A stretch of 24,208 nucleotides of DNA from a virus. Lineage: Duplodnaviria > Heunggongvirae > Uroviricota > Caudoviricetes. Positions 1 to 23,274 of the stretch are shown one piece after another; the first letter of the stretch is position 1, and every line of letters starts with the position of its first letter. The notes beneath the pieces are model-generated. The model saw only the letters and a program-made list of their open reading frames with translations, was not told the origin of the DNA and did no database searches. The translations under genes were made by a program, and so were the position numbers. The DNA is taken from the IMG/VR virus record IMGVR_UViG_2579778956_000001, positions 1-24,208 of that record. One strand, given 5' to 3'.

Positions 1-1053
1 TTACGGGGTAATGCCAACCGCTGCCGCCACTTTGTCGCCACTTGGCAGCGTTGCCAGAGGATTGAAACGGAGCGCCGTTTCCAGATGATCCGGTGCCAGA
101 TGTGCGTAACGCATAGTCATTTTTATATCGTGGTGTCCGAGAATTTTTTGTAAGGCCAGAATGTTTCCACCCGACATCATGAAGTGCGCCGCAAACGTAT
201 GGCGCAGAACGTGTGTGAGTTGACCGCGAGGGAGCACGATAGACGTTTTTTCCATCACGGATAAAAATTGAAAATAGCAGTCTGTGAAGAAATTGAACCC
301 ATCAAGCGCCATGATCTCTTCGTAAAGCTCTTTACTGATAGGGATGCTTCTGTTTTTCTTCCCCTTCGTTCTTACAAAGGTAATTCGGTATTTGGTCACC
401 TGTGAACGAGTAAGATTTACGGCTTCTCGCCAGCGTGCGCCTGTGCTTAAGCATATCTTAACTACCAGTGCCAGAATTGGGTCCTGACGTTTGCAATCAG
501 CCAGTAATTCAACAATCTGCTCATGGGTAAGCCATGCCATCTCTTTTTCTGCGATGGTGAATTTTCGCATGTTCTCCAGTGGGTTCGGATACGACCATTC
601 GCCCAGGCGGGATAGTTCGCTAAAAACACTACTTAGATAGCTTTGCTCCAGGTTAATGGTGACCGGGCTTGCTCCTTTCTTCCATTTCTCGCTGAAGTAG
701 ATCTCACCTGTCAGGCGTTTATCTCGATAGTGGGCAAACATTTTAGAGGTTAGATCAGTTGCAAGGGGATTGCCCAGAGCGTCAACCATCAGCAGCAATT
801 TGTCATAGACATGCTGCCCAGCTGTCAGTGATTTACCATGTAGTTTGAACCATAGCTCAACCACGTCTTTCAGTGTTCGACGATCCACTGATTCACCTAG
901 CCAGGGCTTTGCTTCGGTTTCTTCCATCGTGTGACGCTCAAAAGCCAGTGCTTCGCCTTTGGTGGCGAATTGTTTACGCACACGACGTCCACTACGTCCG
1001 GCGGGGTAACATTCGCAAAGCCATTTTCCTGTGGTGAGTTTTCGTACTGCCAT
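1..1053 (-). CDS. int: P2/186-family tyrosine integrase (site-specific recombinase)
   Basis: 350-aa ORF with the stop codon at window positions 1-3. Contains LSTGARWREA, FVRTKGKK, HVLRHTFAAHFMMSGG, LQKILGHHD and MRYAHL motifs typical of P2-type integrases (catalytic R..HxxR..Y). Sits at the prophage end next to the repressor, as in P2/186. Confidence 0.9.
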   Translation of the reverse strand: MAVRKLTTGKWLCECYPAGRSGRRVRKQFATKGEALAFERHTMEETEAKPWLGESVDRRTLKDVVELWFKLHGKSLTAGQHVYDKLLLMVDALGNPLATDLTSKMFAHYRDKRLTGEIYFSEKWKKGASPVTINLEQSYLSSVFSELSRLGEWSYPNPLENMRKFTIAEKEMAWLTHEQIVELLADCKRQDPILALVVKICLSTGARWREAVNLTRSQVTKYRITFVRTKGKKNRSIPISKELYEEIMALDGFNFFTDCYFQFLSVMEKTSIVLPRGQLTHVLRHTFAAHFMMSGGNILALQKILGHHDIKMTMRYAHLAPDHLETALRFNPLATLPSGDKVAAAVGITP

Positions 1054-1078
1054 AAAAAAGCCCTCATATCAGAGGGCT
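1054..1078 (-). terminator. Hairpin plus T-run (minus-strand sense) between the DUF4041 gene and the int start codon; possible intrinsic terminator or attenuator
   Basis: Stem AGCCCTC (1059-1065) / GAGGGCT (1072-1078) with a 6-nt loop, preceded on the plus strand by AAAAAA (1054-1059), which is a U-run after the hairpin on the minus-strand transcript. The right arm GAGGG also lies 7 nt upstream of the int ATG and could act as its SD. Confidence 0.4.
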
Positions 1079-1136
1079 AAATTTAACTGTATATACAACC
1101 AGTAATCAATGTGTGATTGCTATGAAACATACATTG

Positions 1137-2813
1137 CTAAGCAACATGTAGTTCATCGTTGGCGGAAGTGGCTGCTTTGCGTTCCTGCTCAATAGCTAGT
1201 GACTCTCTATATTCTTTCGCCTCTGCAAACATTGTCCAGTGGGCATTGATGTTCATATCTTCAATAACCGATTTAATTTCTTTAATATTTACGTTAAAAA
1301 ACTCTTTTCGTGAGTTAATTTTATTGACCTGCTTTTCGTTGAAGACTTTATGCAGATGATTTTCTAATGACGGTGCATCATCACTATAAATCATCGCATG
1401 AACATCGAACGAAAAAGGAACACTAGCATCCCCAAGTTCACGAACACGATCAAGTGGTTCAAGGCGGCGTGTCATTCCAATTTTATATACATCTTCGCCA
1501 AATGAGCCAATATTGCTAATTATATAAACATGGCCTGATCTAGTTTGTTGAGCCATAGAAATAGCTCGTTGGTTTTTAGCTTCAGCTTCTTCATATTTTA
1601 ACTGTAGTTCAGCTATTTTTTGCTCTAAAGCTAAGCGTTGTTCTTCATTTGCAAGCATAAGCTCTTTCGTTGCTTTATTTATAGCTTGCTGAATAGCTTT
1701 TTCTTCTTTTTCGGCTTCTTTTATCGCTTTTTCATACTCTCTACGAGCTCTTTCCTCTTCACGAAGCTGTTCTTTAATCCTTCTTTGCTCCTCTTTTTCT
1801 TCGAGCATAATTTCATTAACTGCAACTCCCCATTTTAGCTCGTTGAGTCGTGCCTGAAGATAGATGTCACTTATTTTTGCGGATCTAAAAGCAGAGCCAT
1901 TATAATTTACAAGTTGAAATGCATCTTTTATTTCTTGGGAAAGTTTTCCAAAATTGTTGTGTTTGACTTTTGATAAAATACTGTCAACTCTTCCATTGAA
2001 GGCATCCAAAACAAAGTTGATAGCAGTATTACGCCTGTTTTGCTCAACATAATCACACGAAGCTGCTTTATTAGTTTTTATTAATGATTTTGTTAACTCC
2101 CTGGCTTTTTGTAATTCCTTGCCTGCATCTGTAAACTCATAATTTTCTGCCAATTCATCAAGTACACTACGGTTAGGGATGATCCATTCATCGCCATAAC
2201 CTTCAATTTTATTTTTCATTGATTTGGCAACTGCTTCATATTTTTCTGCAAACTCTTTAGCTTCATATGCTGAACCAGCAATCTCTTTTGCTCTTTCTTC
2301 TGCATCGGAAATAATTTTTACTGCGTTGTCATTAGCATTTGAGATCAGCTCATTTGCTTTACTGTTGGCATTATCAAGACGTTCTTTGGCTTTCAGGCGT
2401 GCATCGCGAGCGTCTTTGGTGATTGCTATAGCTTCGCTATTAGCGTTGCTTATTGTTATCTGAGCTTGATAACTTGCTTCGTTTACTGTCTTAGCTGCCT
2501 TTATTTGGGCTTCTTCTATTTTTTGCCTAGCTATTGAGTCTGCATTTTTTATCTTATTCTCTGCCTCCATCACTGCGCTGTGCAATTCTTCGTATTGCCA
2601 TAATGGTGCTGCTCGCCCTTCAAGCTCTGATAGATCTCGTGCAGTCTGTGCTAACTTTTCTTGATTTTCACTCAGTTGGCTGGAAAGGGCTATGTTGTTA
2701 GCCGTCAGATTATCTATGGCGGCTTTGTGTTCTTTACTTTGCTTAAATAATATTATAGCTAGAACAGGGGCGAGAAATGCTAATAAGAATATAACGATGG
2801 AAAATGAATTCAT
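1137..2813 (-). CDS. Membrane-anchored coiled-coil protein with DUF4041 and C-terminal T5orf172 (GIY-YIG-like, MUG113) domains; candidate defence/abortive-infection moron
   Basis: 558-aa ORF. N-terminal hydrophobic helix (FSIVIFLLAFLAPVLAIILF), long E/K/A-rich coiled-coil region, and C-terminal GHVYIISN...YKIGMTRRLEPLDRVRELG...PFSFDV...LHKVF...REFF, which matches the T5orf172 pattern from memory. AT-rich relative to the phage backbone. Starts 20 nt after the cI stop with AAGGA as SD. Confidence 0.8.
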   Translation of the reverse strand: MNSFSIVIFLLAFLAPVLAIILFKQSKEHKAAIDNLTANNIALSSQLSENQEKLAQTARDLSELEGRAAPLWQYEELHSAVMEAENKIKNADSIARQKIEEAQIKAAKTVNEASYQAQITISNANSEAIAITKDARDARLKAKERLDNANSKANELISNANDNAVKIISDAEERAKEIAGSAYEAKEFAEKYEAVAKSMKNKIEGYGDEWIIPNRSVLDELAENYEFTDAGKELQKARELTKSLIKTNKAASCDYVEQNRRNTAINFVLDAFNGRVDSILSKVKHNNFGKLSQEIKDAFQLVNYNGSAFRSAKISDIYLQARLNELKWGVAVNEIMLEEKEEQRRIKEQLREEERARREYEKAIKEAEKEEKAIQQAINKATKELMLANEEQRLALEQKIAELQLKYEEAEAKNQRAISMAQQTRSGHVYIISNIGSFGEDVYKIGMTRRLEPLDRVRELGDASVPFSFDVHAMIYSDDAPSLENHLHKVFNEKQVNKINSRKEFFNVNIKEIKSVIEDMNINAHWTMFAEAKEYRESLAIEQERKAATSANDELHVA

Positions 2814-2833
2814 TTTTAAATCCTTTTACTATA

Positions 2834-3430
2834 TCAATTTGAAACTATTGTACTTCTTATACAAGCAACCACTTCAATATCAGAAAATGCACATTCAAAG
2901 CTATTCTCTGTAGTTGTAATTTTAATCATACCTTTTGGAAGCTTTGTGATTTTTCGAATGGAATAGGTTCCGTCGATGTTGATTAACCAGTGTCCATCAA
3001 GTACTTCAGAAAATTTTTGATCACAAATGTATGTGACAAGCCCATCCTGAATAACAATTGGTGATGAAAGATTTGCAGGAAGAAATGATGAATCGAATAC
3101 ATATGAACCATCTTCAATCATTTTGCCTGCGGTAAGGCGAAACTTGGGAAGCTCTTCTGTGGCTACTGTCAGCGAGCTTTGCTTAAGTCCTTGCCCGGTG
3201 GTTAACCATTTCAGTGAGGTTCCTGTTTCAAGAGCACATTGGATTATCCAGTCTGCAGGAAACGTATCCCGCAAATACCTGTTCGCCAGAGTGCTTTTTG
3301 ATACTTCCAAGTGATCAGCTAAAGCCTGTCGTGTCGTAAAGCCATAAGCTTCGACTAATCGCTCAATCGCAGCCTTACCACCTTTATTGGGATTTATTTT
3401 GATCTCACTTGGGTACTTTGATGTTGACAT
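2834..3430 (-). CDS. cI: 186-type CI immunity repressor (N-terminal HTH, C-terminal oligomerisation domain)
   Basis: 198-aa ORF. N-terminal LVEAYGFTTRQALADHLEVSKSTLANRYLRD...ALETGTSLKWLTTGQG resembles the phage-186 CI HTH domain. Divergent from the apl/cII genes and adjacent to int. No LexA/S24-type Ala-Gly cleavage site or G-D-S-M motif seen. Confidence 0.75.
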   Translation of the reverse strand: MSTSKYPSEIKINPNKGGKAAIERLVEAYGFTTRQALADHLEVSKSTLANRYLRDTFPADWIIQCALETGTSLKWLTTGQGLKQSSLTVATEELPKFRLTAGKMIEDGSYVFDSSFLPANLSSPIVIQDGLVTYICDQKFSEVLDGHWLINIDGTYSIRKITKLPKGMIKITTTENSFECAFSDIEVVACIRSTIVSN

Positions 3431-8747: not shown

Positions 8748-8936
8748 ATGCAGGACTATTTTTTGGAGTCTTTGAAGCTCCAGCGCATTGATTTTTTTCT
8801 TAAGCTTGTAGCGGCTAGTGAGTGTAGTGATGAAGAGAAGGGGCTGGCTCTGCAGTGGGTTTCAGAGCTGACTGATGAGTTGATGGCGAAAATTCGTGCC
8901 CATGAATATAACCGTGTAATGGATCTTCCCGGTTAG
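8748..8936 (+). CDS. Small hypothetical protein under putative LexA control (possible antirepressor-like or SOS-induced factor)
   Basis: 62-aa ORF with strong SD AGGAGG and an upstream LexA box. Position corresponds to the 186 tum / P2 tin-old region downstream of gene A. No confident homology recognised. Confidence 0.5.
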   Translation: MQDYFLESLKLQRIDFFLKLVAASECSDEEKGLALQWVSELTDELMAKIRAHEYNRVMDLPG

Positions 8937-8949
8937 CAGCAGGGGCGTT

Positions 8950-8980
8950 GCTGGCGTGAGAACTAGATTCTCGCGTCAGC
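8950..8980 (+). other. Long imperfect palindrome / RNA hairpin downstream of the small ORF
   Basis: GCTGGCGTGAGAA (8950-8962), 5-nt loop, TTCTCGCGTCAGC (8968-8980): a 13-bp stem with two G-U wobbles in RNA. No U-tract follows, so not a canonical terminator. Confidence 0.35.
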
Positions 8981-9106
8981 AAGGTCAACTAAGGATTGAA
9001 ACAGAAAGCCCTTGAAAACAGTAGCAAGTTGCCTATTATCTACGCTGTATTTAATCGATGTCATTGGCTGTAATACCTTAAGTGATATTGAAAGGCGGTG
9101 TGGGGA

Positions 9107-10267
9107 ATGGATCTGGCTAAAGTTGAAGAACGCGTCCGAAGAGTCATAGGGACAATGGAGTCTGCCGAGCTTGATGAATATTTTTGGGGTAAGCGCTCGG
9201 GTTTGGGAGACTCATTACCTCCGTATTATCTCGTTTATTTTCTTTTGGTAGATTTACTGAAATTTAAAAATCGTGGGGTTGATGAGAAGATTTCTTTTTC
9301 TATCCCAGTCCGGATTGATGGGACTGTCGTAATTATAGAACATCGTAAACTTGGTTTAGATATATTTATCAAGAGTGATGATGATATAGAGCAAGCTAAA
9401 ACTGTTTTGAGACATATTTGCGCAGGGGTTAAAGCTGCTACGAAATTTTTTGACTCGCTTGCAGACAATGCAGCAAAGACTTCAAATCTAAATGTTAATA
9501 ACAATGCTAATTCTCTTTATGATAGGTTTTGCTATTTTTTAGAGCTATATAAACAGAAGCTTGATGAAGTTGCTGCTGGCCAAGAGTCTAAACTGGAAGT
9601 TGATAGTGAGTTTAAGTCTGATAATTTTTTCAGCCTGTTACAATCCACTTTTGAACAATCAAATAAGATAATTGAACTCCGAAGAGAGGCTATGTGGTTA
9701 GCAACGTCTGCAATTGAGTCATTTTTCAATTGGACCGAGCATGTTTTCATTCTTATTGCAATCTTGAAGGGTGAGATAAAAAATGGGAATGATGTGGCTG
9801 ATAAAGTTGGGAAAGAATGGGGGGAGAAATTCAAATTAGCCATTGATATTAACTCTTCCAGTCTAAAATCATTCTATGATCGTTTACTTATACTCAGAAA
9901 ACAGGTGCGTAATTTTGTAGCCCATGGCGCCTTCGGTAAGGATGGGCAAGCATTGGAATTTCACTCAAGTGTAGGGGCTGTGCCACTATTGCTGCCTCAT
10001 CGAGAAAATAAAGAACGTTTCAAGTTTGGAAATGGTGTGCATTTTTTGGCACCTGAAGCAATGCAATTAATTAACGATTTTCTTGAAAATTTGTGGCAGG
10101 GAGAACTGTCCCCAGCAAAAATTTATATTGAATCTGGATGTCCTTTAATACTATCTTACGTAACTAATGGAACCTATGCGGAGGCGATGAAATCAGAAAG
10201 GAATATGGACTTATTGGTTAATTACTTAACTCGTGAGATGGATAATGCCGCAAACATGGATTGGTAA
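9107..10267 (+). CDS. Hypothetical protein with HEPN-like R-N-x3-H motif (candidate RNase-type defence/abortive-infection effector)
   Basis: ORF with ATG at 9107 (alternative GTG at 9098; SD-like AAGG at 9092-9095, about 11 nt upstream). AT-rich codon usage. Contains LRKQVRNFVAHG, which fits the HEPN consensus R-[NSH]-x3-H. No other domain recognised. Lies in the gpA-Q hotspot. Confidence 0.65.
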   Translation: MDLAKVEERVRRVIGTMESAELDEYFWGKRSGLGDSLPPYYLVYFLLVDLLKFKNRGVDEKISFSIPVRIDGTVVIIEHRKLGLDIFIKSDDDIEQAKTVLRHICAGVKAATKFFDSLADNAAKTSNLNVNNNANSLYDRFCYFLELYKQKLDEVAAGQESKLEVDSEFKSDNFFSLLQSTFEQSNKIIELRREAMWLATSAIESFFNWTEHVFILIAILKGEIKNGNDVADKVGKEWGEKFKLAIDINSSSLKSFYDRLLILRKQVRNFVAHGAFGKDGQALEFHSSVGAVPLLLPHRENKERFKFGNGVHFLAPEAMQLINDFLENLWQGELSPAKIYIESGCPLILSYVTNGTYAEAMKSERNMDLLVNYLTREMDNAANMDW

Positions 10268-10594
10268 ACTCTAGGTGCGGGTTACAAACACACAAAAAAT
10301 CTTCCTGAGTTAGGTGTTATCCCAACCCAAGGCTGTGTCAGGAAAACTTCATATGGCGCATGAGATCGCATGATAGTATGACGATCGTTTTCGCTGATGC
10401 CAGCCTGAGCTGGCGGGCTGTTGCATATGTCATGCAGGCGCATGAAAACCACTGCATAAAGCGGGTAGGCGTGGCGGGGATACGAGCGCGCGCTTGTGGC
10501 TTTGAATACTCAAATCATGTAATGTTAATTGTCCAAGCTCAGATGTTATTTTAGAATCGTAGTTCACTAGAACTGTGTTAATTGGGAAGTATTC

Positions 10595-11845
10595 ATGGAT
10601 AAACAACGTGCTTCACAAGTTTTTGTGCCTGGCGGTATGCCGAAATTGACTTATGTTGAGCGCTCTGAAGGAGAGGTTCATGGAAAACTGGAGAGTGCTA
10701 AAGATAATTTATGTAAGTTAGTGACTTTAACTGGGCAAACAAAGTCTGGTAAGACTGTAATTACAAGAATGGTATTCCCAGTCATGGACGATGATGTTGT
10801 ATGGATTGACGGTGGGAGTATTACAACTGAAGATGATATTTGGGAGCAGGTATTAGAAAAACTAAATGGCTACCATAGTATTGAAGTTAATTCTGGAGAA
10901 AATAGTGCTATTGCAGTTAGTGGTAAGGTATCGGGGACCGCAAGTGCATTCGTTGTTAAAGGTACAGGTGAGGCTGGTTTAGTTCAGACGGATGGAAAGT
11001 CAAATGGTAATAAAAAATCGCGAACGATATCCGCAAAAAGTTCTGCACTAAAAGTTCTCTCTCAAACCAAGTCTAGTCTTATAATTGATGACTTTCATTA
11101 CCTTGATCGTGACCTACAAGGTAACTTTATTAGAGCGATAAAACCATTAGTTTTTGATGGAGTACCAGTTGTACTGATAGCCATTCCACATCGAAGATAT
11201 GATGCTGTAAAAGTTGAAAAAGAAATTACCGGACGGCTAGAAAATATTTCCATGCCTTCGTGGGAAATGGATGAACTAAAACAAATAGCAAAAGTGGGAT
11301 TTCCTCTGTTAAACATGGAAGTTAGTGATTCAGTAATTGATAAAATTGCCAATGAATCATTGGGAAGCCCTCATTTAATGCAAGAGTTTTGCAAGGCTAT
11401 ATGCTTAGCAAATAATGTTAAAGAAACTTTGCCGAGTAAGTTAGTTATTAATTCTTTAGATGATGATATTTTTAGAAAGGTTGCAGAATCCACTGGGAAA
11501 ATAGTATTTGATAAGTTAGCTAGTGGCCCTAATCAGCGAACTGACAGAATTCCTAGAAAACTGAAAAGTGGTGAGGAAGTAGATATATATAAAGTTGTAT
11601 TATATGCATTGTCACATATGAAACCAGGAATGCAAAGTATTCAGTATGAGGAGTTAAGATCAGCCATACGCGAACTGGTGCAAGATGCTCCTCCACAAGC
11701 TCATGAGGTTACTCGTGTTATAGAAAAAATGGCTAAAATAGCTGCTACGGAAGAAGCTTCAACTCCTGTAATAGATTGGGATAAGGAGGACCGAAAGTTG
11801 CATATTACTGATCCATTTTTTGCTTTTTATCTAAAATGGCGATAA
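10595..11845 (+). CDS. P-loop NTPase (Walker A/B ATPase), candidate defence-system ATPase
   Basis: 416-aa ORF with SD GGGAAG upstream. Walker A LTGQTKSGKT (about residue 45) and Walker B-like hhhhDD (SLIIDDFHYLD). AT-rich. No nuclease (Toprim/HNH) motif recognised, so not an obvious Old/Gabija-type protein. Confidence 0.8.
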   Translation: MDKQRASQVFVPGGMPKLTYVERSEGEVHGKLESAKDNLCKLVTLTGQTKSGKTVITRMVFPVMDDDVVWIDGGSITTEDDIWEQVLEKLNGYHSIEVNSGENSAIAVSGKVSGTASAFVVKGTGEAGLVQTDGKSNGNKKSRTISAKSSALKVLSQTKSSLIIDDFHYLDRDLQGNFIRAIKPLVFDGVPVVLIAIPHRRYDAVKVEKEITGRLENISMPSWEMDELKQIAKVGFPLLNMEVSDSVIDKIANESLGSPHLMQEFCKAICLANNVKETLPSKLVINSLDDDIFRKVAESTGKIVFDKLASGPNQRTDRIPRKLKSGEEVDIYKVVLYALSHMKPGMQSIQYEELRSAIRELVQDAPPQAHEVTRVIEKMAKIAATEEASTPVIDWDKEDRKLHITDPFFAFYLKWR

Positions 11846-11852
11846 AGGTTCT

Positions 11853-11871
11853 GGCTGCCAAACTGGCAGCC
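11853..11871. terminator. GC-rich hairpin between the convergent ATPase gene (+) and portal gene (-); putative bidirectional terminator
   Basis: GGCTGCC (11853-11859), loop AAACT, GGCAGCC (11865-11871). Located in the 32-bp gap between two convergent stop codons. Flanking T/A runs are weak. Confidence 0.45.
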
Positions 11872-11877
11872 TTAAAG

Positions 11878-12915
11878 CTAATTTGAATGAAGTTTATATT
11901 CTTCGAACTGTATCACTTTTTCTTTTAACCAAACATTTAACTCTTCAAATCTTTTTTGCAATGGTATTAGTTCATTGCGTACAAATACATTACTTGCCTT
12001 CTCCACATCCCCAAACCCCCCAACATTATTTGGCATTATCCCCATCATCTGTGGCGGCACGCGGTGTGCCGCCATCATGTCATCGCGACTAACATTTTTG
12101 ATATTCAGAAATTCATCCTTCGCTGCGACTTCTGACAACGGGATAATCTGAAGTCCGTCTTTTTTACCATTAGGCGAGTACATAAACAGATTGCGGAAGT
12201 TACCCGGACCTTTGGCGCTTTTCATTGCGTTGCGGAGGTTGTTCACATCCTCCTGGTTCTGCGCGGCATCGGTCATGTACATGATGAAGCCGGCATGACT
12301 GCCGTTAATGTAATACTTGCGGCGGAACAGCGTGGCGGACTCGTTGAGCAAAGCGGATGGGATGGCAGAAAGATAGCCGGGCAGGCCGTAGATCTCCTGG
12401 TTGATGTCCGGTTCCATCAGATGAAAAATGCTGCCTTTCGTGAACTGATACGGCTGGGTTGTCATACCGTATTGCACAAACCAGTAGGTATCCAGGTCTA
12501 ACCCGCGTCGGGTGTATTTTGCCAGCGCAGGCTCAAGGGCGATAACTTCACCGAATCGGTTCGTGCGTTTCTCCAGGTAGGCGTTACCAAATACCAGATA
12601 GTCCTGTACAAAACGCGAAAAAGCCTGTTGGCTGAGCAGCGGATGAGGGATATAGGTACTGGTCAGAATGTTGCACTTTACTGCAATCGGGGAACTGTGA
12701 TGCACGGCAGCCCGGAAGGTGCGCGCCAGTCCGTCAAAACTTACGGGTGGCTCGTACCAACACTCCATCTGTACGCATTCCACATAGTCCAGCAGTTCGC
12801 GGCGGTCCAGAACAGGAACGGGATCACCGAAGCTGAATGCTTCGGCTGAAGTCTGGCTTTTATGCTGGATCTGTTTCGTCGACGCAGCGCGGTTCTTCTT
12901 ACTCTTTCCCATCAA
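11878..12915 (-). CDS. Q: Portal vertex protein gpQ
   Basis: 345-aa ORF; size and position (upstream of and translationally coupled to the terminase gene) match P2 gene Q. Start overlaps the terminase stop. Confidence 0.85.
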   Translation of the reverse strand: MMGKSKKNRAASTKQIQHKSQTSAEAFSFGDPVPVLDRRELLDYVECVQMECWYEPPVSFDGLARTFRAAVHHSSPIAVKCNILTSTYIPHPLLSQQAFSRFVQDYLVFGNAYLEKRTNRFGEVIALEPALAKYTRRGLDLDTYWFVQYGMTTQPYQFTKGSIFHLMEPDINQEIYGLPGYLSAIPSALLNESATLFRRKYYINGSHAGFIMYMTDAAQNQEDVNNLRNAMKSAKGPGNFRNLFMYSPNGKKDGLQIIPLSEVAAKDEFLNIKNVSRDDMMAAHRVPPQMMGIMPNNVGGFGDVEKASNVFVRNELIPLQKRFEELNVWLKEKVIQFEEYKLHSN

Positions 12916-14820: not shown

Positions 14821-15459
14821 ATGACAGTGAAAGCAAAGCGTTTTCGCATCGGGGTGGAAGGTGCCACCACCGACGGACGCGAAATCCAGCGTGAATGGCT
14901 GGAACAGATGGCAGCCAGCTACAACCCGGCGGTGTATACCGCGCTGATTAACCTTGAGCACATCAAGTCTTATCTGCCGGACAGCACCTTTAACCGCTAC
15001 GGCAAGGTGACGGCGCTGTTTGCTGAAGAAATCAAGGAAGGTCCGCTGGCAGGCAAGATGGCGCTGTATGCCGACGTTGAGCCAACGGAGTCCCTGGTGG
15101 AACTGGTGAAAAAAGGCCAGAAATTATTCACATCTATGGAAGTTAGCCCGAAGTTCGCTGATACGGGCAAAGCCTACCTGGTCGGCCTGGCTGCCACTGA
15201 TGACCCTGCCAGTCTGGGCACTGAAATGCTGACATTCAGCGCCAGTGCAGCCCATAACCCGCTGGCAAACCGCAAGCAGAATCCCGCCAATCTTTTTACC
15301 GCTGCAGAGGAAACGGTGATCGAACTGGAAGAAATCCAGGATGACAAACCGTCCCTGTTTGCCCGTGTCACGGCGCTGTTCACCAAAAAAGAGCAGTCCG
15401 ATGACGCCCGGTTCTCTGATGTGCATAAGGCCGTGGAACAACTGGCAGGGGATCGTTGA
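14821..15459 (+). CDS. O: Capsid scaffolding protein gpO, C-terminally truncated at a deletion junction (likely nonfunctional)
   Basis: 212-aa ORF with an N-terminus of gpO type (FRIGVEGATTDGREI...YLVGLAATDDPASLGTE). P2 gpO is about 284 aa as I recall. The ORF ends in a short non-homologous tail (QLAGDR*) exactly where tail-tube homology begins in another frame. Confidence 0.75.
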   Translation: MTVKAKRFRIGVEGATTDGREIQREWLEQMAASYNPAVYTALINLEHIKSYLPDSTFNRYGKVTALFAEEIKEGPLAGKMALYADVEPTESLVELVKKGQKLFTSMEVSPKFADTGKAYLVGLAATDDPASLGTEMLTFSASAAHNPLANRKQNPANLFTAAEETVIELEEIQDDKPSLFARVTALFTKKEQSDDARFSDVHKAVEQLAGDR

Positions 15460-15904
15460 GTCGCTGACGCTGCCGAAATTTACCCGCAAATATGAGAAGT
15501 ATCGCGGCGGCGGAATGCCGGGTGCGGTGGATGTGGATCTGGGGCTTGATGACAGTGCGCTGGACACAGAATTTTCCATTGGTGGTACTGAATTGCTGCT
15601 GTTTAAACAGATGGGTAAAGCCACGGTGGATGGCATCCAGCTGCGCTTTACCGGCTCTATTCAGCGTGACGATACCGGGGAAGTGCAGGCCGTGGAGCTT
15701 GTCGTGCGTGGACGTCACAAAGAAGTGGATTCCGGCGAGTGGAAGACGGGCGAAAGCAACACCACCAAAGTGACCAGTACCAACAGCTACGCGAAGCTGA
15801 CCATCAATGGTGAGGTGCTCTATGAAGTGGACCTTATCAACATGGTGGAAATTGTGGACGGTGTGGACCTGATGGAAGCGCACCGCAACGCCCTCGGCCT
15901 CTGA
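15446..15904 (+). pseudogene. FII: Tail tube protein FII, 5'-truncated fragment fused downstream of gpO
   Basis: Frame of ORF 15341..15904. Homology to the P2 major tail tube protein begins about at QGIVESLTLPKFTRKYEKYRGGGMPGAVDVDLGLDD and runs to the C-terminus (...EAHRNALGL). About 25 N-terminal residues and any start codon/SD are missing; the upstream part of the ORF overlaps gpO out of frame. Confidence 0.7.
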
Positions 15905-16261: not shown

Positions 16262-16395
16262 CGGTTGACGATCTGGTGGCAGATATCGCCACCATTTTTC
16301 ACTGGCCGCCATCCGTTACTGACGTTATGCCGCTGACCGAAGTGCTGGAATGGCGGTATAAAGCGATTCAGAGAAGCGGGGCCAACGATGAGTGA
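15959..16395 (+). CDS. E': gpE+E' extended chaperone produced by programmed -1 ribosomal frameshift
   Basis: After a -1 slip at T TTT TTG (16216-16222) the reading frame stays open to TGA at 16393-16395, overlapping the T start codon (16388). Translated by hand: ...FVEEVGACRFTDSLTVDDLVADIATIFHWPPSVTDVMPLTEVLEWRYKAIQRSGANDE*. Confidence 0.7.
16216..16222 (+). other. Programmed -1 frameshift slippery heptamer (X XXY YYZ = T TTT TTG)
   Basis: TTTTTTG, in frame as ac[T TTT TTG] in gene E. Conserved arrangement upstream of tape-measure genes. Confidence 0.7.
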
Positions 16396-19300
16396 TAACA
16401 ACCTGCGTCTGCGGGTCATTCTTAATGCGGTTGACAAGCTCACCCGCCCATTTCGATCTGCGCAGGCCAGTTCAAGAGAACTGGCTGCTGCTGTCAAAAA
16501 ATCCCGCGATGCAATAAAGCAGCTTGATCAGGCCGGGAGCAGTCTGGACAGCTTCCGAAAGCTGCAGGCAGAAAATCAGAAATTAGGCGACAGGCTGAAC
16601 TATGCCCGCCAGCGTGCAAATTTGCTCAGTCAGGAACTGGGAGCGATGGGGCCGCCTTCGCAACGTCAGGTTGTTGCTCTGGGCCGTCAACGGCTGGCTG
16701 TTCAGCGCCTGGAAGAACGCCAGAAAAAGCTGCAGCAGCAGACGGCGCTTGTGCGTGCTGAACTGTACCGGGCGGGAATTTCTGCGAAAGACGATGCGGG
16801 AGCAACTGCCCGTTTAGCCCGTGAAACATCACGTTATAACCAGGAACTTTCGAAACAGGAGGCGCGGCTGAAGCGACTGGGGGAAGCTCAGCGCAGGATG
16901 AATGCAGCGCGTGCCAGTTATGCCCGTTCGCTGGAGGTGCGTGATCGTATTGCAGGTGCCGGAGCCACCACCACGGCTGCAGGGCTGGCAATGGGTGCGC
17001 CAGTGATGGCGGCAGTAAAAAGCTATACCAGCATGGAAGATGCCATGAAAGGTGTGGCAAAGCAGGTCAATGGTCTGCGTGACGATAATGGCAACCGCAC
17101 TGCACGTTTTTATGAAATGCAGGATGCCATCAAGGCTGCCAGCGAACAGTTGCCGATGGAAAACGGTGCGGTGGACTTCGCTGCACTGGTTGAAGGTGGT
17201 GCGCGCATGAACGTCGCAAACCCTGACGACAGCTGGGAAGATCAGAAACGTGACCTGCTGGCCTTCGCCAGTACGGCAGCAAAGGCGGCAACAGCCTTTG
17301 AGCTGCCAGCGGATGAACTGTCAGAAAGTCTGGGGAAAATCGCCCAGCTCTACAAAATTCCTACCCGCAATATTGAACAGCTCGGTGATGCGCTGAACTA
17401 TCTGGATGATAACGCCATGTCGAAAGGGGCAGACATCATTGATGTCATGCAACGCCTGGGCGGTGTGGCTGATCGTCTGGATTATCGTAAAGCGGCGGCG
17501 CTGGGTTCCACCTTTCTGACACTGGGCGCTGCGCCAGAGGTTGCAGCCAGTGCAGCAAACGCGATGGTGCGTGAATTGTCCATTGCCACCATGCAAAGCA
17601 AGAGTTTCTTTGAAGGGATGAATCTGCTGAAACTCAATCCTGAAGTGATTGAAAAGCAGATGACGAAGGATGCGATGGGAACTATCCAGCGCGTACTGGA
17701 GAAGGTGAACGCACTGCCGCAGGATAAACGTCTGTCTGCCATGACCATGTTGTTTGGTAAAGAGTTTGGCGATGACGCGGCGAAACTGGCAAACAACCTG
17801 CCGGAACTGCAGCGCCAGCTAAAACTGACAGCGGGCAATGATGCGCTCGGCTCCATGCAGAAAGAATCCGACATTAACAAGGACTCACTTTCTGCGCAGT
17901 GGTTGCTGGTCAAAACCGGAGCGCAGAACACCTTCAGCAGCCTGGGCGAAACGCTGCGCCAGCCGCTGATGGATATTCTGTACACGGTGAAAAGCATCAC
18001 GGGGGCGTTGCGCCGCTGGGTGGAAGCTAACCCGGAACTGACAGGCACACTGATGAAAGTAGCCGCTGTGGTGGCTGCGGTTACCGTAGGCCTCGGAACC
18101 TTAGCGGTGGCGCTGGCTGCAGTGCTGGGGCCGCTGGCAGTGATTCATCTGGGATTCTCTGTGCTGGGTATCAAAACGTTACCTTCCGTTACGGCAGCAG
18201 TAACCCGAACCAGCAGCGCGTTGTCCTGGCTGGCTGGCGCACCACTGGCACTGCTGCGACGCGGGCTTGCTTCATCGGGCAACGCCGCAGGTTTACTTAC
18301 TGCGCCGTTGTCGTCTTTGCGCCGCACGGCATTACTGACGGGAAATGTCCTGAAAACTGTAGCAGGTGCGCCGGTTGCACTTTTGCGGTCTGGATTATCC
18401 GGTTTACGTGCTGTTGCTGTGATGTTTATGAATCCTCTGGCGGTACTGCGCGGTGGACTGGCCGCCGCAGGCACGGTGCTGCGAGTACTGGCATCTGGTC
18501 CACTGGCGATGCTGCGCGTTGCCCTGTATGCCGTATCTGGTCTGTTAGGTGCTCTGCTCAGTCCGATAGGTCTTGTGGTTACTGCACTGGCGGGCGTGGC
18601 GCTGGTTGTCTGGAAATACTGGCAACCCATCACCGCATTTCTTGGTGGCGTGGTGGAAGGATTCAAAGCGGCGGCAGGTCCCGTCAGTGAAGCATTCGAA
18701 CCGCTTAAGCCCGTGTTCCAGTGGATTGGCGACAAAGTACAGGCGCTGTGGGGCTGGTTTACTGATCTGCTGACGCCCGTTAAGTCGACCTCTGCCGAAC
18801 TGCAGAGTGCAGCGGCAATGGGGCGACGATTCGGGGAGGCACTGGCGGAAGGGCTAAATATGGTCATGCATCCGCTGGACTCCCTGAAATCCGGCGTTTC
18901 CTGGTTGCTGGAGAAGCTCGGCATTGTCAGTAAAGAGGCCGCAAAGGCAAAACTGCCGGAAAGCGTGACGCGTCAGCAACCTGCGACGGTGAATGCAGAC
19001 GGTAAAGTGATGATGCCATCGGGTGGTTTTCCATCATGGGGATATGGCTTTGCGGGGATGTATGACAGCGGCGGGTATATCCCGCGCGGGCAGTTTGGCA
19101 TCGTCGGTGAAAACGGGCCGGAAATTGTTAACGGCCCGGCAAATGTGACCAGCCGGAGAAATACAGCTGCACTGGCTGCCGTTGTTGCCGGAATGATGGG
19201 AGTTGCTGCCGCGCCAGCAGAGCTTCCACCGTTGCACCCTTTGGCACTTCCCGCGAAAGGTGGAGAAGCAATTGTGAGTCGCGCAGCCACTGTGCCGCTC

Positions 19301-19465
19301 GTTCAACGGATTGAGGCACCGACGCAGATCATCATTCAGACGCAGCCAGGACAAAGTGCGCAGGATATTGCGCGGGAGGTGGCACGCCAGCTTGATGAAC
19401 GTGAACGCAGGCTGAAGGCAAAAGCCAGGAGTAACTACAGCGATCAGGGGGGATACGACGCATGA
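16388..19465 (+). CDS. T: Tail tape measure protein gpT
   Basis: 1025-aa ORF; coiled-coil-rich N-terminal half, Ala/Gly/Leu-rich hydrophobic repeats in the middle. Follows E/E' and precedes U and D. Confidence 0.9.
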   Translation: MSDNNLRLRVILNAVDKLTRPFRSAQASSRELAAAVKKSRDAIKQLDQAGSSLDSFRKLQAENQKLGDRLNYARQRANLLSQELGAMGPPSQRQVVALGRQRLAVQRLEERQKKLQQQTALVRAELYRAGISAKDDAGATARLARETSRYNQELSKQEARLKRLGEAQRRMNAARASYARSLEVRDRIAGAGATTTAAGLAMGAPVMAAVKSYTSMEDAMKGVAKQVNGLRDDNGNRTARFYEMQDAIKAASEQLPMENGAVDFAALVEGGARMNVANPDDSWEDQKRDLLAFASTAAKAATAFELPADELSESLGKIAQLYKIPTRNIEQLGDALNYLDDNAMSKGADIIDVMQRLGGVADRLDYRKAAALGSTFLTLGAAPEVAASAANAMVRELSIATMQSKSFFEGMNLLKLNPEVIEKQMTKDAMGTIQRVLEKVNALPQDKRLSAMTMLFGKEFGDDAAKLANNLPELQRQLKLTAGNDALGSMQKESDINKDSLSAQWLLVKTGAQNTFSSLGETLRQPLMDILYTVKSITGALRRWVEANPELTGTLMKVAAVVAAVTVGLGTLAVALAAVLGPLAVIHLGFSVLGIKTLPSVTAAVTRTSSALSWLAGAPLALLRRGLASSGNAAGLLTAPLSSLRRTALLTGNVLKTVAGAPVALLRSGLSGLRAVAVMFMNPLAVLRGGLAAAGTVLRVLASGPLAMLRVALYAVSGLLGALLSPIGLVVTALAGVALVVWKYWQPITAFLGGVVEGFKAAAGPVSEAFEPLKPVFQWIGDKVQALWGWFTDLLTPVKSTSAELQSAAAMGRRFGEALAEGLNMVMHPLDSLKSGVSWLLEKLGIVSKEAAKAKLPESVTRQQPATVNADGKVMMPSGGFPSWGYGFAGMYDSGGYIPRGQFGIVGENGPEIVNGPANVTSRRNTAALAAVVAGMMGVAAAPAELPPLHPLALPAKGGEAIVSRAATVPLVQRIEAPTQIIIQTQPGQSAQDIAREVARQLDERERRLKAKARSNYSDQGGYDA

Positions 19466-19947: not shown

Positions 19948-21044
19948 ATTTCAGCTCTGAACTGCTTAACAAAGGCAACAAAACTCCGGCATTCAGCATC
20001 AGTATTGAAGGCAGAAATATCACCACTGTGCTGGACAACCGCCTGATGGGGCTGACGCTGACGGATAACCGGGGATTTGAAGCGGACCAGCTTGATCTGG
20101 AGCTGGACGACGCCGATGGAAAAATCGTGCTGCCGCGCCGTGGTGCGGTCATTACGCTGGCGCTGGGCTGGAAGGGGCAGCCGCTTTTCCCGAAAGGGGC
20201 ATTCACGGTGGACGAGATTGAACACACTGGCGCACCGGACCGCCTGACTATCCGGGCGCGAAGTGCTGATTTTCGGGAAACCCTGAATACCCGCCGTGAA
20301 AAATCTTGGCACAAGACCACCGTCGGGGAAGTGGTAAAGGAAATAGCCGCGCGTCACAAGCTGAAGATGGCGCTGGGTAAAGACCTGTCGGATAAGCCCG
20401 TGGAACATATAGACCAGACTAATGAGAGTGACGGCAGTTTTCTGATGCGGCTGGCGCGACAGTACGGTGCCATCGCGTCGGTGAAAAATGGCAATCTGCT
20501 ATTCATCCGGCAGGGGCAGGGCAAAAGCGCCACTGGTAAACCACTGCCAGTGATCACTATCACACGCAAGGACGGCGACAGTCACCGCTTTACCCTGGCA
20601 GATCGCGGAGCCTACACGGGCGTAATTGCCAGCTGGTTGCATACCCGCGAACCTGCGAAGAAAGAAAGCACCACGGTGAAGCGTAAGCGCAGAACTAAGA
20701 AGCAGAAGAAAGAGCCAGAAGCGAAGCAGGGCGATTACCTGGTGGGTACGGATGAAAACGTGCTGGTACTTAATCGCACTTATGCCAACCGGAGCAACGC
20801 CGAACGAGCGGCGAAAATGCAGTGGGAACGCCTGCAACGCGGCGTTGCGTCATTCTCGCTACAACTGGCAGAAGGGCGGGCAGATCTCTACACGGAAATG
20901 CCAGTGAAAGTCAGTGGCTTTAAACAGCCGATAGATGATGCGGAATGGACCATTACGACTCTGACGCATACCGTCAGCCCGGATAACGGTTTTACGACCA
21001 GTCTGGAGCTTGAAGTGAGGATTGATGATTTCGAAATGGAATGA
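19944..21044 (+). CDS. D: Tail protein gpD (late control gene D family)
   Basis: 366-aa ORF; GTG start overlapping the U stop (GTGA). Position between U and ogr as in P2. Confidence 0.85.
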   Translation: MNFSSELLNKGNKTPAFSISIEGRNITTVLDNRLMGLTLTDNRGFEADQLDLELDDADGKIVLPRRGAVITLALGWKGQPLFPKGAFTVDEIEHTGAPDRLTIRARSADFRETLNTRREKSWHKTTVGEVVKEIAARHKLKMALGKDLSDKPVEHIDQTNESDGSFLMRLARQYGAIASVKNGNLLFIRQGQGKSATGKPLPVITITRKDGDSHRFTLADRGAYTGVIASWLHTREPAKKESTTVKRKRRTKKQKKEPEAKQGDYLVGTDENVLVLNRTYANRSNAERAAKMQWERLQRGVASFSLQLAEGRADLYTEMPVKVSGFKQPIDDAEWTITTLTHTVSPDNGFTTSLELEVRIDDFEME

Positions 21045-21134
21045 TTCTTCGCAATGGAGAACTTTTAAGTTTGCAAAATGGAATAATACGGTATCATTAT
21101 TGTGAATTTAGCAAAAATGGGGAGAACTCGAAAA

Positions 21135-21353
21135 ATGATGATTTGCCCACTGTGTGGAAGTGCCGCCCATACTCGCAGCAGTTTTCAGGTATCTTCATTG
21201 ACCAAAGAGCGTTACAACCAGTGCCAGAATATTAACTGCAGCCATACTTTTGTAACCCATGAAACTTTTGTTCGTTCGATTGCAACGCCAAAAGAGTCAA
21301 ATCCGGTTCAGCCGCATCCAATGAAATCAGGACAGGTGGCGCTCTCTCTTTGA
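21135..21353 (+). CDS. ogr: Ogr/Delta-family zinc-finger late-gene transcription activator
   Basis: 72-aa product from ATG 21135 (SD GGAGA 21121-21125): MMICPLCGSAAHTRSS...KERYNQCQNINCSHTF..., which has the Ogr C-x2-C...C-x4-C pattern and the same length as P2 Ogr. Last gene before the host junction. Confidence 0.8.
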   Translation: MMICPLCGSAAHTRSSFQVSSLTKERYNQCQNINCSHTFVTHETFVRSIATPKESNPVQPHPMKSGQVALSL

Positions 21354-21433
21354 CGCTGCCGCCATTTTGTCGCCATCGTTAAAAAACAGTGCTTCTAACG
21401 TCATGATTTTAAACGGCATAAATTTCAGGCAAC

Positions 21434-21476
21434 AAAAAACCCATCAACCTTGAACCGAAATGGCGGGGTTGATGGG
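21434..21476 (-). terminator. Putative intrinsic terminator downstream of ybjL (minus-strand sense)
   Basis: Inverted repeat CCCATCAACC (21440-21449) / GGTTGATGGG (21467-21476), preceded on the plus strand by AAAAAA (21434-21439), a U-run on the minus strand. The loop is long (17 nt), so confidence is modest. Confidence 0.4.
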
Positions 21477-21588
21477 CTCCACAAAATGGGGACATCAAAG
21501 AAAAGCAGTGGCACTAATTAAGACTGATGCCCTGCGGAAAAGTTCTGCGGTTGTGCAAAAAAATTTCATTTTCAGGGCAACTTCAGTT

Positions 21589-23274
21589 TTATCCTAATCC
21601 TGGCCATACCATGACGATGATTGTCCCTGCCAGCGTCAGCAGGACGTTGGCGATTGCATAGGTGCCCGCATAGCCCAGCGCCGGGATGTTACTGCGAGCT
21701 GTATCACTGATGATCTCCATTGCCGGCGCGCAGGTACGTGCGCCCATCATTGCGCCGAACAACAGTGCGCGGTTCATTCGCAATACATAAGCACCGAACA
21801 AGAAACAGATAACCACGGGCACCAGACTGACAATCAATCCGGCAATCAACATCTGACCGCCAATCGCGCCCAGGCCGTTATTAATACCGCTACCGGCGCT
21901 CAGACCAACGCCTGCCATAAACACCATCAAGCCGAACTCTTTCACCATGCTTAATGCACCTTGCGGAATGTAACCGAAGGTCGGGTGGTTAGCACGCATA
22001 AAGCCCAGCATAATTCCGGCGAATAACAACCCGGCAGCGTTCCCCATGCCGAAACTGAATGTGCTGAACTGGAAGGTGATCATCCCGATCATCAGCCCAA
22101 TAACAAAGAAGGCGCAAAATGCCAGCAGGTCAGTGACCTGGCTGTGAATCGAGATAAAGCCGATGCGATCGGCGATGGTTTTTACGCGACGGGCATCACC
22201 GCTGACTTGTAAAACGTCACCTTTGTTAAGCACGACGTTGTCATCTATCGGCATCTCAATCTGGCTACGAATGACGCGGTTAAGGAAGCAACCGTGATCG
22301 GTCAACTTCAGTTGTGCGAGACGTTTACCTACAGCGTTATGGTTTTTAACGACCACTTCTTCAGTGACGATACGCATGTCGAGAAGGTCACGATCGAAAA
22401 CTTCTTTACCGTTACGGAAGCTGGGATCGAGTCGGGCATGGGCGTCGGGATAGCCTACCAACGCTATTTCATCGCCCATTTGTAGCACGGCATCACCGTC
22501 TGGATTTGCCAGAATCCCGTTACGTCGAATACGTTCAATGTAGCAGCCGGTTTGTCGATAAATACCCAGTTCACGCAGATTTTTGCCGTCGGTCCAGGCC
22601 ACCAGCTCCGGGCCGACGCGATAGGCGCGGATCACCGGTAAATAAACCTTACGGTTGGCATCAGTGTCCAGGCCACGTTCGCGGGCGATTTGCTGGGCGC
22701 TGGTCTGTAAGTCCTGATGCTGCAATTTCGGCAAGTAACGCGCACCAACAATCAAACTCACCAGACCGATTAAATAGGTTAAGGCATACCCGAGGCTCAG
22801 ATTATCCAGTGCCAGTGAGAGCTGCCTGCTTTCCATGCCGGAATGACGCAGTGTATCGCCAGCACCGACCAGAACCGGTGTCGACGTCATAGAGCCTGCT
22901 AACATACCGGCCGTCAGGCCAATATCCCAGCCAAACAGCTTACCTAACCCTAAGGCGATCACCAGCGCACTGCCAACCATCACCAGTGCTAACATTAGGT
23001 AATTTTTCCCATCGCGAAAAAAAATGGAAAAAAAGTTCGGTCCGGCTTCGACCCCGACGCAGAAAATAAACAGCATAAAGCCAAGATTAAGCGCATCGGT
23101 GTTAATGCTGAAATGTTGTTGGCCTAATAACAGCGATACGACTAAAACGCCAATGGAATTACCCAGTTGGATCGAACCAAGTCGTAACTTTCCGAGACAT
23201 AGCCCAAGCGCGAGGACCACAAATAATAACAGAATGTAATTCCCATTTAACAATTCGGCGACGTTTATATTCAC
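21589..23274 (-). CDS. ybjL: Putative AAE-family transport protein YbjL (host chromosomal gene)
   Basis: 561-aa polytopic membrane protein with central TrkA-C-like soluble domains. N-terminus [38 protein letters not shown] matches E. coli YbjL as I recall. Confidence 0.9.

What the first reader, a model, noticed from the sequence alone, without database searches (positions are those of the whole stretch)
21354..21588. Right prophage-chromosome junction (attR expected) between ogr and ybjL
Phage sequence ends with ogr (21353) and host sequence resumes with ybjL (21589), so the attR core should lie in this 235-bp interval, which also holds the apparent ybjL terminator hairpin. The matching attL lies beyond the left window edge, since the window starts exactly at the int stop codon, so the direct repeat cannot be identified here.
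Basis: inference. Interest (0 to 1): 0.35.

Follow-up and report, generated by a model that had tools for sequence, protein, structure and literature searches.

The report
Prophage attR inside the rybB sRNA gene

Summary
The interval 21354-21588 does contain the right prophage-chromosome junction. Comparing four sites (attR in the window, attB in K-12 and HB101, attL in two related lysogens, attP in a phage record) places the crossover in a 14-bp core, AACAAAAAACCCAT, at window 21431-21444.

This is the sigma-E-dependent sRNA rybB (21434-21512), 79/79 identical to K-12 and scoring 105 bits against Rfam RF00110. The hairpin is RybB's own terminator, not a dedicated ybjL terminator. Host sequence resumes at about 21431, not at 21589, and phage DNA runs about 77 bp past the ogr stop codon.

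The core is the last 5 nt of the RybB terminator stem plus its U tract. It is also the 3' half and U tract of the integrase gene's own terminator, so integration leaves both intact.

Two 186-type arm repeats lie at 21357-21378, with partners at window 22-43 inside the int 3' end.

rybB is a documented P2-like insertion site (Rybb*B, Rybb*W and Rybb*Cr prophages; Sorek-lab hotspot #29; Klebsiella Kpn38RybB). It is occupied in at least 1115 of 5426 complete E. coli genomes.

Verdict: real, correctly placed, already known, low interest.

The parts
21135..21353 (+). ogr, the late-gene activator and last phage gene before attR
   Evidence: 72-aa ORF matching Pfam PF04606 Ogr_Delta at 5e-22. Annotated as ogr/Delta-like in matching genomes.
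21357..21378 (+). P-arm candidate Int arm-type binding sites: two tandem 11-bp direct repeats, TGCCGCCATTT and TGTCGCCATCG
   Evidence: They match the 186-type arm consensus tgccGCCActt of Nilsson et al. 2011 (PMC3448106). Found by pattern search. Conserved in the KP12 attP, 4LV2017, 2014C-3061 and BL21. Binding was not tested.
21396..21408 (-). Weak IHF-like site (AATCATGACGTTA, one mismatch to WATCAANNNNTTR) between the arm repeats and the core
   Evidence: Python scan of the reconstructed attP. A consensus match only, so speculative.
21418..21430 (.). Phage-side extension of homology to the host site (ATAAATTTCAGGC against host ATAAATTTTAGAT, 10/13 matches)
   Evidence: The megablast match to empty-site genomes starts at 21418. 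Binomial P(>=10/13) is about 1.7e-4. The CAGGC part is identical to the Klebsiella attB flank.
21431..21444 (.). attR common core and crossover region, AACAAAAAACCCAT (ATGGGTTTTTTGTT on the rybB strand)
   Evidence: It is the only segment identical in attB (K-12, HB101), attL (2014C-3061, BL21, 813R9), attR (window, 2014C-3061, BL21, 4LV2017) and attP (KP12).
21434..21512 (-). rybB, a sigma-E-dependent Hfq-binding sRNA, intact host gene; its last 11 nt lie within the core
   Evidence: Rfam RF00110, 105.3 bits, E 2.4e-22. 79/79 identical to the annotated K-12 rybB b4417.
21438..21478 (-). RybB intrinsic terminator hairpin (12-bp stem), followed by U6 at 21434-21439
   Evidence: RNA fold gives -25.2 kcal/mol, z = -3.3, with 0 of 200 shuffles as stable. 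It matches the Rfam consensus structure.
21519..21545 (-). rybB sigma-E-type promoter: -35 GAACTT (21540-21545), 16-nt spacer, -10 TCTTA (21519-21523), +1 at 21512
   Evidence: Read directly from the sequence and identical to K-12. The sigma-E assignment comes from established knowledge of rybB and was not tested here.
22..43 (+). P'-arm candidate Int arm-type sites (TGCCGCCACTT and TGTCGCCACTT) inside the 3' end of int; the only part of attL visible in the window
   Evidence: Pattern search and sequence. Same orientation and 11-bp period as the P-arm pair.
1..1053 (-). int, an HP1/186-type tyrosine integrase (350 aa)
   Evidence: Pfam PF24624 and PF00589. PDB 1aih HP1 integrase at 6.5e-58, with the ARW, HxLRH and RY catalytic motifs aligned.
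21589..23274 (-). ybjL, a host aspartate:alanine antiporter family gene to the right of rybB
   Evidence: Pfam PF06826 and PF02080. Annotated as ybjL in all matching genomes.

Best explanation
The interval is the attR junction of a P2-like (Peduoviridae, 186/HP1-type integrase) prophage that integrated by tyrosine-recombinase site-specific recombination into the 3' end of the host sRNA gene rybB.

In the free phage, attP lies in the 165-bp ogr-int spacer and extends into the int 3' end. Its 14-bp core AACAAAAAACCCAT is identical to the last 5 nt of the RybB terminator stem, the U6 tail and 3 further nt.

Int presumably bridges tandem arm-type repeats on both sides (21357-21378 and window 22-43) to the core. 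It then exchanges strands within the 14-bp identity. This gives attL (rcdA, core, P', int) and attR (ogr, P, core, rybB body).

Because the core is identical in phage and host, rybB stays 100% intact with its promoter and terminator. The same core also forms the 3' half and U tract of int's own terminator, so that hairpin is kept at attL.

Shown here: the four-way att sequence relationship, the position of the core, the integrity of rybB, and the class of the integrase. Inferred: Int catalysis, arm-site and IHF binding, and the exact cleavage points within the 14 bp.
For: - **rybB identity.** Rfam RybB hit at 105 bits. The K-12 rybB annotation maps to 21434-21512 and is 79/79 identical.
- **Empty sites.** K-12 and HB101 are co-linear with the window from 21431 (loosely from 21418) rightward. 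To the left they continue into rcdA.
- **attL in related lysogens.** 2014C-3061 (99.9% identical to window 1-2900), BL21(DE3) and phage record 813R9 all show rcdA-TAG, 16 nt, the core, then phage P' sequence up to the int stop.
- **Intact attP.** The P arm, core and P' arm are contiguous between ogr and int in Klebsiella phage KP12 clone 3.
- **Core copy number.** The core occurs once in the window and exactly twice, at the prophage ends, in full lysogens.
- **Independent annotation.** Klebsiella phage 4LV2017 carries depositor-annotated attL and attR of 19-20 bp that contain the same core.
- **Integrase.** Int is HP1-like, with conserved catalytic motifs.
- **Arm repeats.** 186-type arm repeats lie on both arms.
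- **Literature.** rybB is listed as a P2-like insertion site (PMC3032704; PMC10121019; PMC4048246).
Against: - The attL of the window's own genome could not be read. No complete RefSeq E. coli genome carries this exact prophage variant, so attL is inferred from close relatives.
- No experiment shows Int activity, arm-site binding or the exact cleavage positions.
- The int terminator hairpin is only modestly stable (-9 kcal/mol, z about -2).
Confidence: 0.95

Rival explanations
1. The interval is plain phage-to-ybjL spacer, the hairpin is the ybjL transcription terminator, and the attR core is some unidentified 15-30-bp segment unrelated to any gene.
For: ybjL and the hairpin are on the same strand. 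No other terminator-like structure lies between the ybjL stop and the hairpin, so read-through from ybjL would also stop there.
Against: The hairpin is part of a full-length RybB match with its own promoter, and it is annotated as the ncRNA rybB in K-12. The core overlaps the 3' half of that hairpin.
Confidence: 0.03
2. The phage block is ancestral at this locus, and the 'empty' genomes are precise deletions. On this view the 14-bp repeat is a deletion scar rather than an att core.
For: The prophage in the window is visibly decaying: it has a 12.4-kb internal deletion. This shows that deletions do occur here.
Against: An intact attP joining the two arms exists in phage records. The same int-attP module (97-99.5% nucleotide identity) sits at rybB in Klebsiella. 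Occupancy is patchy, at about 20% of E. coli genomes. Prophages at the site differ in cargo.
Confidence: 0.01
3. Integration changes RybB function. The phage P-arm sequence now lies immediately downstream of the U tract and alters termination efficiency or 3'-end formation. Lysogens would then differ in sigma-E envelope-stress output.
For: Sequence 3' of position 21431 differs between lysogen (GCCUGAAAUUUAU) and non-lysogen (AUCUAAAACUUAU).
Against: The whole transcribed RybB, the U6 tract and 3 further nucleotides are unchanged. The first 13 nt downstream are still 10/13 identical. No expression data are available.
Confidence: 0.05

Closest known systems
Rybb*B, Rybb*W and Rybb*Cr P2-like prophages of E. 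coli B, W and Crooks (Archer et al. 2011, PMC3032704); the BL21(DE3) locus was examined here
   Same: The insertion site is the same: it is listed as 'rybB ncRNA'. BL21(DE3) has the identical 14-bp core at both ends and the same gene order, rcdA-int ... ogr-rybB-ybjL. Like the window's prophage, Rybb*B is defective through internal deletions.
   Different: The cargo differs: the B prophage carries the retron Ec86/St85 family, while the window carries PD-Lambda-1 and a PDC-S59-like gene. The deletions also differ. The window's O-to-FII junction is absent from all 5426 complete genomes searched.
[quoted passage not shown]
   Same: Same locus and same phage group, with defence systems carried at dedicated positions. 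Occupancy is confirmed here in at least 1115 of 5426 complete genomes.
   Different: That paper gives no base-level att anatomy in the text read here.
Klebsiella phage 4LV2017 (Elveevirus) and related Kp48xx/KP12 records, and the Kpn38RybB island (Hudson et al. 2014, PMC4048246)
   Same: The integrase is 99.4% identical. The P and P' arms are 97-99.5% identical. The annotated attL and attR contain the same core, and rybB lies immediately to the right.
   Different: The host genus differs. The Klebsiella attB shares 19-20 bp with attP (GCAGGCAACAAAAAACCCAT), whereas the E. coli attB shares 14 bp plus an imperfect extension.
Coliphage 186 and Haemophilus phage HP1 integration into the 3' ends of tRNA genes
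   Same: The integrase lineage is the same: 49% identity to HP1 Int, and PDB 1aih matches at 6.5e-58. The arm repeats are of the 186 type. The strategy is also the same: the target is the 3' stem and tail of a structured RNA gene, and attP carries an identical copy so the gene survives.
   Different: The target is an Hfq-dependent sRNA terminator, not a tRNA. The shared core is much shorter, 14 bp against tens of bp for 186-type tRNA sites as described.
Phage P2 itself (attP between ogr and int; intergenic locI site)
   Same: The prophage gene order and the position of attP between ogr and int are the same. The mechanism is a tyrosine integrase using a core plus arm sites (established knowledge).
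   Different: The closest P2-group integrases listed, WPhi and P88, are only about 37-38% identical. The P2 arm consensus is tgTGGaCa, not the 186-type one. P2 uses a different, non-RNA-gene attB.

Membership tests
RybB sRNA (Rfam RF00110) | Full-length match to the covariance model above the gathering score | tested here: met
   105.3 bits against a gathering score of 40, model positions 1-79 of 79, E 2.4e-22.
RybB sRNA (Rfam RF00110) | Identity and synteny with the annotated E. coli K-12 rybB (b4417), between rcdA/ybjK and ybjL | tested here: met
   79/79 identical. In K-12 the order is rcdA-rybB-ybjL. In the window ybjL is adjacent, and rcdA is displaced to the far side of the prophage in related lysogens.
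RybB sRNA (Rfam RF00110) | Rho-independent terminator hairpin followed by a U tract | tested here: met
   12-bp stem followed by U6. The fold gives -25.2 kcal/mol and z = -3.3.
RybB sRNA (Rfam RF00110) | Sigma-E-dependent transcription and Hfq-dependent repression of omp mRNAs | not testable with these tools
   Only a sigma-E-like GAACTT-N16-TCTTA motif, identical to K-12, can be read from the sequence.
Tyrosine-integrase prophage attachment site (attL/attR of a P2-like phage) | Short identical core in direct repeat at both prophage ends | tested here: met
   AACAAAAAACCCAT lies at both ends in 2014C-3061 and BL21(DE3). In the window only the attR copy can be seen.
Tyrosine-integrase prophage attachment site (attL/attR of a P2-like phage) | Unoccupied attB carrying one copy of the core, with flanks co-linear to the outer arms of attL and attR | tested here: met
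   K-12 and HB101. About 80% of complete E. coli genomes match only from window 21418 rightward.
Tyrosine-integrase prophage attachment site (attL/attR of a P2-like phage) | attP in a phage genome that joins the inner arms of attR and attL around the same core | tested here: met
   KP12 clone 3 has ogr, P arm, core, P' arm and int contiguous.
Tyrosine-integrase prophage attachment site (attL/attR of a P2-like phage) | Adjacent tyrosine recombinase gene with catalytic R, H-x-x-R and Y | tested here: met
   PF00589 and PF24624. The alignment to HP1 integrase 1aih shows GARW, HVLRH and MRYAH conserved.
Tyrosine-integrase prophage attachment site (attL/attR of a P2-like phage) | Arm-type direct repeats on both sides of the core | tested here: met
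   TGCCGCCAyTT and TGTCGCCAyyk pairs lie at 21357-21378 and 22-43 and match the published 186-type consensus. Protein binding was not tested.
Tyrosine-integrase prophage attachment site (attL/attR of a P2-like phage) | Int-dependent integration and excision at this core | not testable with these tools
   This needs in vivo or in vitro recombination assays.
tRNA/tmRNA-gene integration site | A tRNA or tmRNA gene at the junction | tested here: not met
   ARAGORN finds no tRNA or tmRNA anywhere in the window. The target is an sRNA.

The most novel reading that the evidence does not exclude
The phage attP may have evolved to mimic the 3' half of the RybB terminator, so that one 14-bp element serves as crossover site, RybB terminator and int terminator. 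Replacing the DNA just downstream of RybB's U tract with phage sequence would then measurably change RybB termination or 3'-end formation. That would shift sigma-E envelope-stress output in the roughly 20% of E. coli strains that carry a prophage here.
Probability: 0.05. Interest if true: 0.4.

Novelty: already known. Interest (0 to 1): 0.1.

Why it matters
The result mainly matters for correct annotation. The interval should be labelled as rybB plus attR, not as an empty spacer with a ybjL terminator.

It also gives base-level anatomy for one of the most heavily used P2-like insertion sites in E. coli, occupied in at least a fifth of complete genomes. That anatomy is a 14-bp core, 186-type arm repeats and an overlap with two terminators.

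The site is of practical interest because prophages here carry variable anti-phage defence cargo. Nothing here changes current understanding of site-specific integration.

Tried and rejected
- **Window's own genome.** I looked for it to read its attL directly. The best junction match (DETEC-P829, 100% over 21100-22100) carries a different, longer prophage. No complete genome has the window's O-FII deletion junction. attL was therefore taken from 2014C-3061, BL21(DE3) and record 813R9.
- **Repeat motif in the P arm.** I searched the window for the P'-arm repeat AAACAATAAGTT to see whether it recurs in the P arm. Only chance-level matches turned up elsewhere: 3 found against 2.7 expected. These repeats are therefore specific to the off-window P' side and are not the arm sites shared by both arms.
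- **Inverted 10-mer.** A match between P-arm TTTTGTCGCC and the left edge of the core was judged compatible with chance, by my own estimate of about 0.4 expected, and was dropped.
- **Terminator scan.** RNA folding and Rfam were used instead.
- **tRNA target.** Rejected, because ARAGORN finds none.
- **Bobay et al. 2013.** This paper is cited by Hochhauser et al. for rybB, but its main text does not name rybB. The named record is in Archer et al. 2011.

Full report
**What is in the interval**

The sequence 21354-21588 lies between two confirmed genes. One is a 72-aa Ogr/Delta zinc-finger ORF at 21135-21353 (PF04606). The other is ybjL at 21589-23274 on the minus strand (PF06826 and PF02080).

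An Rfam scan of 20800-22000 gives one hit above the gathering score. It is RybB (RF00110) on the minus strand at 21431-21509, with 105.3 bits against a gathering score of 40 and covering the full model.

The K-12 MG1655 record annotates the ncRNA rybB (b4417) between rcdA and ybjL. That 79-nt gene maps to window 21434-21512 and is 79/79 identical. The whole 161 nt from 21431 to the ybjL stop codon is identical to K-12.

It has a 12-bp stem within 21438-21478, followed by U6 at 21434-21439. The 82-nt RNA folds at -25.2 kcal/mol with z = -3.3.

Upstream of +1 (21512) lies GAACTT-N16-TCTTA, the K-12 rybB promoter sequence. Its sigma-E dependence is established knowledge and was not tested here.

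No tRNA or tmRNA is present in the window.

**Where the prophage ends**

A megablast of window 21100-22100 against 5,426 complete E. coli genomes finds the locus in 5,419. Of these, 1,115 match at least 80% of the query, meaning ogr as well as ybjL. In the spread of hits listed, those that lack ogr all match only from query position 319, which is window 21418, rightward.

In HB101 and K-12 the sequence to the left of that point is the rcdA stop codon.

Strain 2014C-3061 carries a full-length relative of this prophage, 99.9% identical over window 1-2900. Its attL reads rcdA-TAG, tagataaattttagat, AACAAAAAACCCAT, ttatgtaaacgggtt..., up to the int stop.

A five-way alignment was made of K-12 attB, window attR, 2014C-3061 attR and attL, and the KP12 attP. 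The only block common to all is AACAAAAAACCCAT, at window 21431-21444.

To the left of the block, attR follows the phage and attL follows the host. To the right, attR follows the host and attL follows the phage. This is the classical BOB', POP', BOP', POB' pattern.

The free-phage arrangement exists in a database record. Klebsiella phage KP12 clone 3 has ogr, P arm, core, P' arm and int contiguous.

The 14-mer occurs once in the window, against 1.8e-4 expected. It occurs exactly twice, at the two prophage ends and in direct orientation, in 2014C-3061 and in BL21(DE3).

The 13 nt to the left of the core are still 10/13 identical between the phage arm and the E. coli site (P about 1.7e-4). This explains why BLAST started at 21418.

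Klebsiella phage 4LV2017 has depositor-annotated attL and attR of 19-20 bp that include the same core. Its host flank, CAGGC, equals the phage arm.

**Anatomy and likely mechanism**

On the rybB strand the core reads AUGGGUUUUUUGUU. That is the last five nucleotides of the RybB terminator stem, the U6 tail and three nucleotides beyond the annotated 3' end.

The same 14 nt form the 3' half and U tract of a small hairpin directly downstream of int, AACCCGUUUACAUAAAUGGGUUUUUUGUU. It folds at -9 kcal/mol, both in attL and in attP.

Recombination inside the identity therefore leaves rybB unchanged at attR and keeps the int terminator at attL.

Int (window 1-1053, minus strand, 350 aa) has PF24624 and PF00589 domains. 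It aligns to the HP1 integrase structure 1aih at 6.5e-58, with the GARW, HVLRH and MRYAH motifs conserved.

Its identities to other phage integrases are as follows:

| Phage | Identity to the window's Int |
|---|---|
| Escherichia phage vB_EcoM-813R9 | 100% |
| Klebsiella Kp48xx prophage records | 99.4% |
| SopEPhi | 55% |
| HP1 | 49% |
| WPhi | 38% |

Nilsson et al. 2011 give tgccGCCActt as the arm-repeat consensus of 186-type P2-like phages (PMC3448106). Exactly such tandem pairs occur on both sides of the core:

- TGCCGCCATTT and TGTCGCCATCG at 21357-21378, in the P arm.
- TGCCGCCACTT and TGTCGCCACTT at window 22-43, in the P' arm, inside the int 3' end.

A further exact 13-bp repeat, AAAACAATAAGTT, occurs twice with a 19-bp period between the core and the int stop, off-window. 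Each copy is one mismatch from the IHF consensus, and a third such site lies at 21396-21408. The roles of these three elements are speculative.

The four-way att relationship and the gene identities are shown by the evidence above. Int catalysis, protein binding and the cleavage points are inferred.

**Comparison with what is known**

rybB is a documented P2-like insertion site.

- Archer et al. 2011 list 'rybB ncRNA' as the site of prophages Rybb*W, Rybb*B (which carries retron Ec86) and Rybb*Cr (PMC3032704).
- I confirmed that BL21(DE3) has a defective P2-like prophage between rcdA and ybjL, bounded by the identical core.
- Hochhauser et al. [quoted passage not shown]
- Hudson et al. [quoted passage not shown]

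The strategy is the one used by 186 and HP1 at tRNA 3' ends, applied here to an sRNA terminator. Nothing about the junction departs from these precedents.

The main inference is right.

The following details are wrong or incomplete:

- Phage DNA continues about 77 bp beyond ogr.
- Host DNA starts at about 21431, not at ybjL.
- The interval contains a complete sRNA gene and its promoter.
- The hairpin is RybB's terminator and is the integration target. It may also stop ybjL read-through, because no other terminator-like structure was found between them.

**Side observations**

The prophage in the window is defective. The O scaffold ORF (14821-15459) matches only positions 2-207 of 268 in the GPO profile. 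It runs into an FII tail-tube fragment that matches profile positions 14-165 of 165.

Alignment to the 2014C-3061 prophage shows a 12.4-kb deletion with its junction at 15435-15437. None of the 5,426 complete genomes has this junction.

Beside int lies a PD-Lambda-1 defence gene with DUF4041 and T5orf172 domains (1137-2813).

The segment 8925-11925 is cargo that differs from the retron Ec67 of 2014C-3061. It includes a PDC-S59-like ATPase (10595-11845) and a 389-aa ORF with no family match.

**Scores**

The finding is real and correctly placed, but it is already known. Interest is 0.1.

Noticed in passing
window 14821-15904 (junction 15435-15437): The prophage has a 12.4-kb internal deletion that fuses a truncated capsid-scaffold gene O (GPO profile positions 2-207 of 268) to a truncated tail-tube gene FII. 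The genes annotated across this span in the full-length relative 2014C-3061 (capsid, small terminase, lysis, baseplate, tail fibre and sheath) are missing. None of the 5,426 complete E. coli genomes shares this junction, so it is either a strain-specific decay event or an assembly artefact.
   Followed up: partly
window 1137-2813 (-): A 558-aa DUF4041 plus T5orf172/MUG113 protein lies directly next to int. It matches the PADLOC model PD-Lambda-1 at 7e-120 and is annotated elsewhere as 'SNIPE associated domain-containing protein'. It is an anti-phage defence gene in a P2-like cargo slot.
   Followed up: partly
window 8925-11925: This 3-kb cargo segment between the replication region and the portal gene has no counterpart in the 2014C-3061 prophage, which carries a retron Ec67 there. 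It holds a 389-aa ORF (9098-10267) with no Pfam or PADLOC match and a 416-aa ORF (10595-11845) that matches the candidate defence model PDC-S59 (1e-31) and weakly AAA_22.
   Followed up: partly
L004/L005/L006 (Klebsiella phages 4LV2017, KP12) against window 1-1053 and 20950-21445: The int-attP-ogr module is 97-99.5% identical at the nucleotide level between E. coli prophages and Klebsiella pneumoniae phages. The phage arm next to the core (CAGGC) equals the Klebsiella attB flank. This suggests recent movement of the module, or of the whole phage, between the two genera.
   Followed up: partly
L003 2949-2980 (off-window, between the attL core and the int stop); also L006 and L010: An exact 13-bp direct repeat, AAAACAATAAGTT, occurs twice with a 19-bp period in the P' arm and is conserved in all relatives examined. 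Each copy is one mismatch from the IHF consensus. It may be a site for an accessory factor such as IHF or the excisionase, but the function is unknown.
   Followed up: partly
window 16488-16929: A roughly 440-bp stretch inside the tape-measure gene T (16388-19465) gives no BLAST alignment to the otherwise about 97%-identical 2014C-3061 prophage. It is a mosaic patch. T is an intact ORF in the window but carries an internal stop in 2014C-3061.
   Followed up: no
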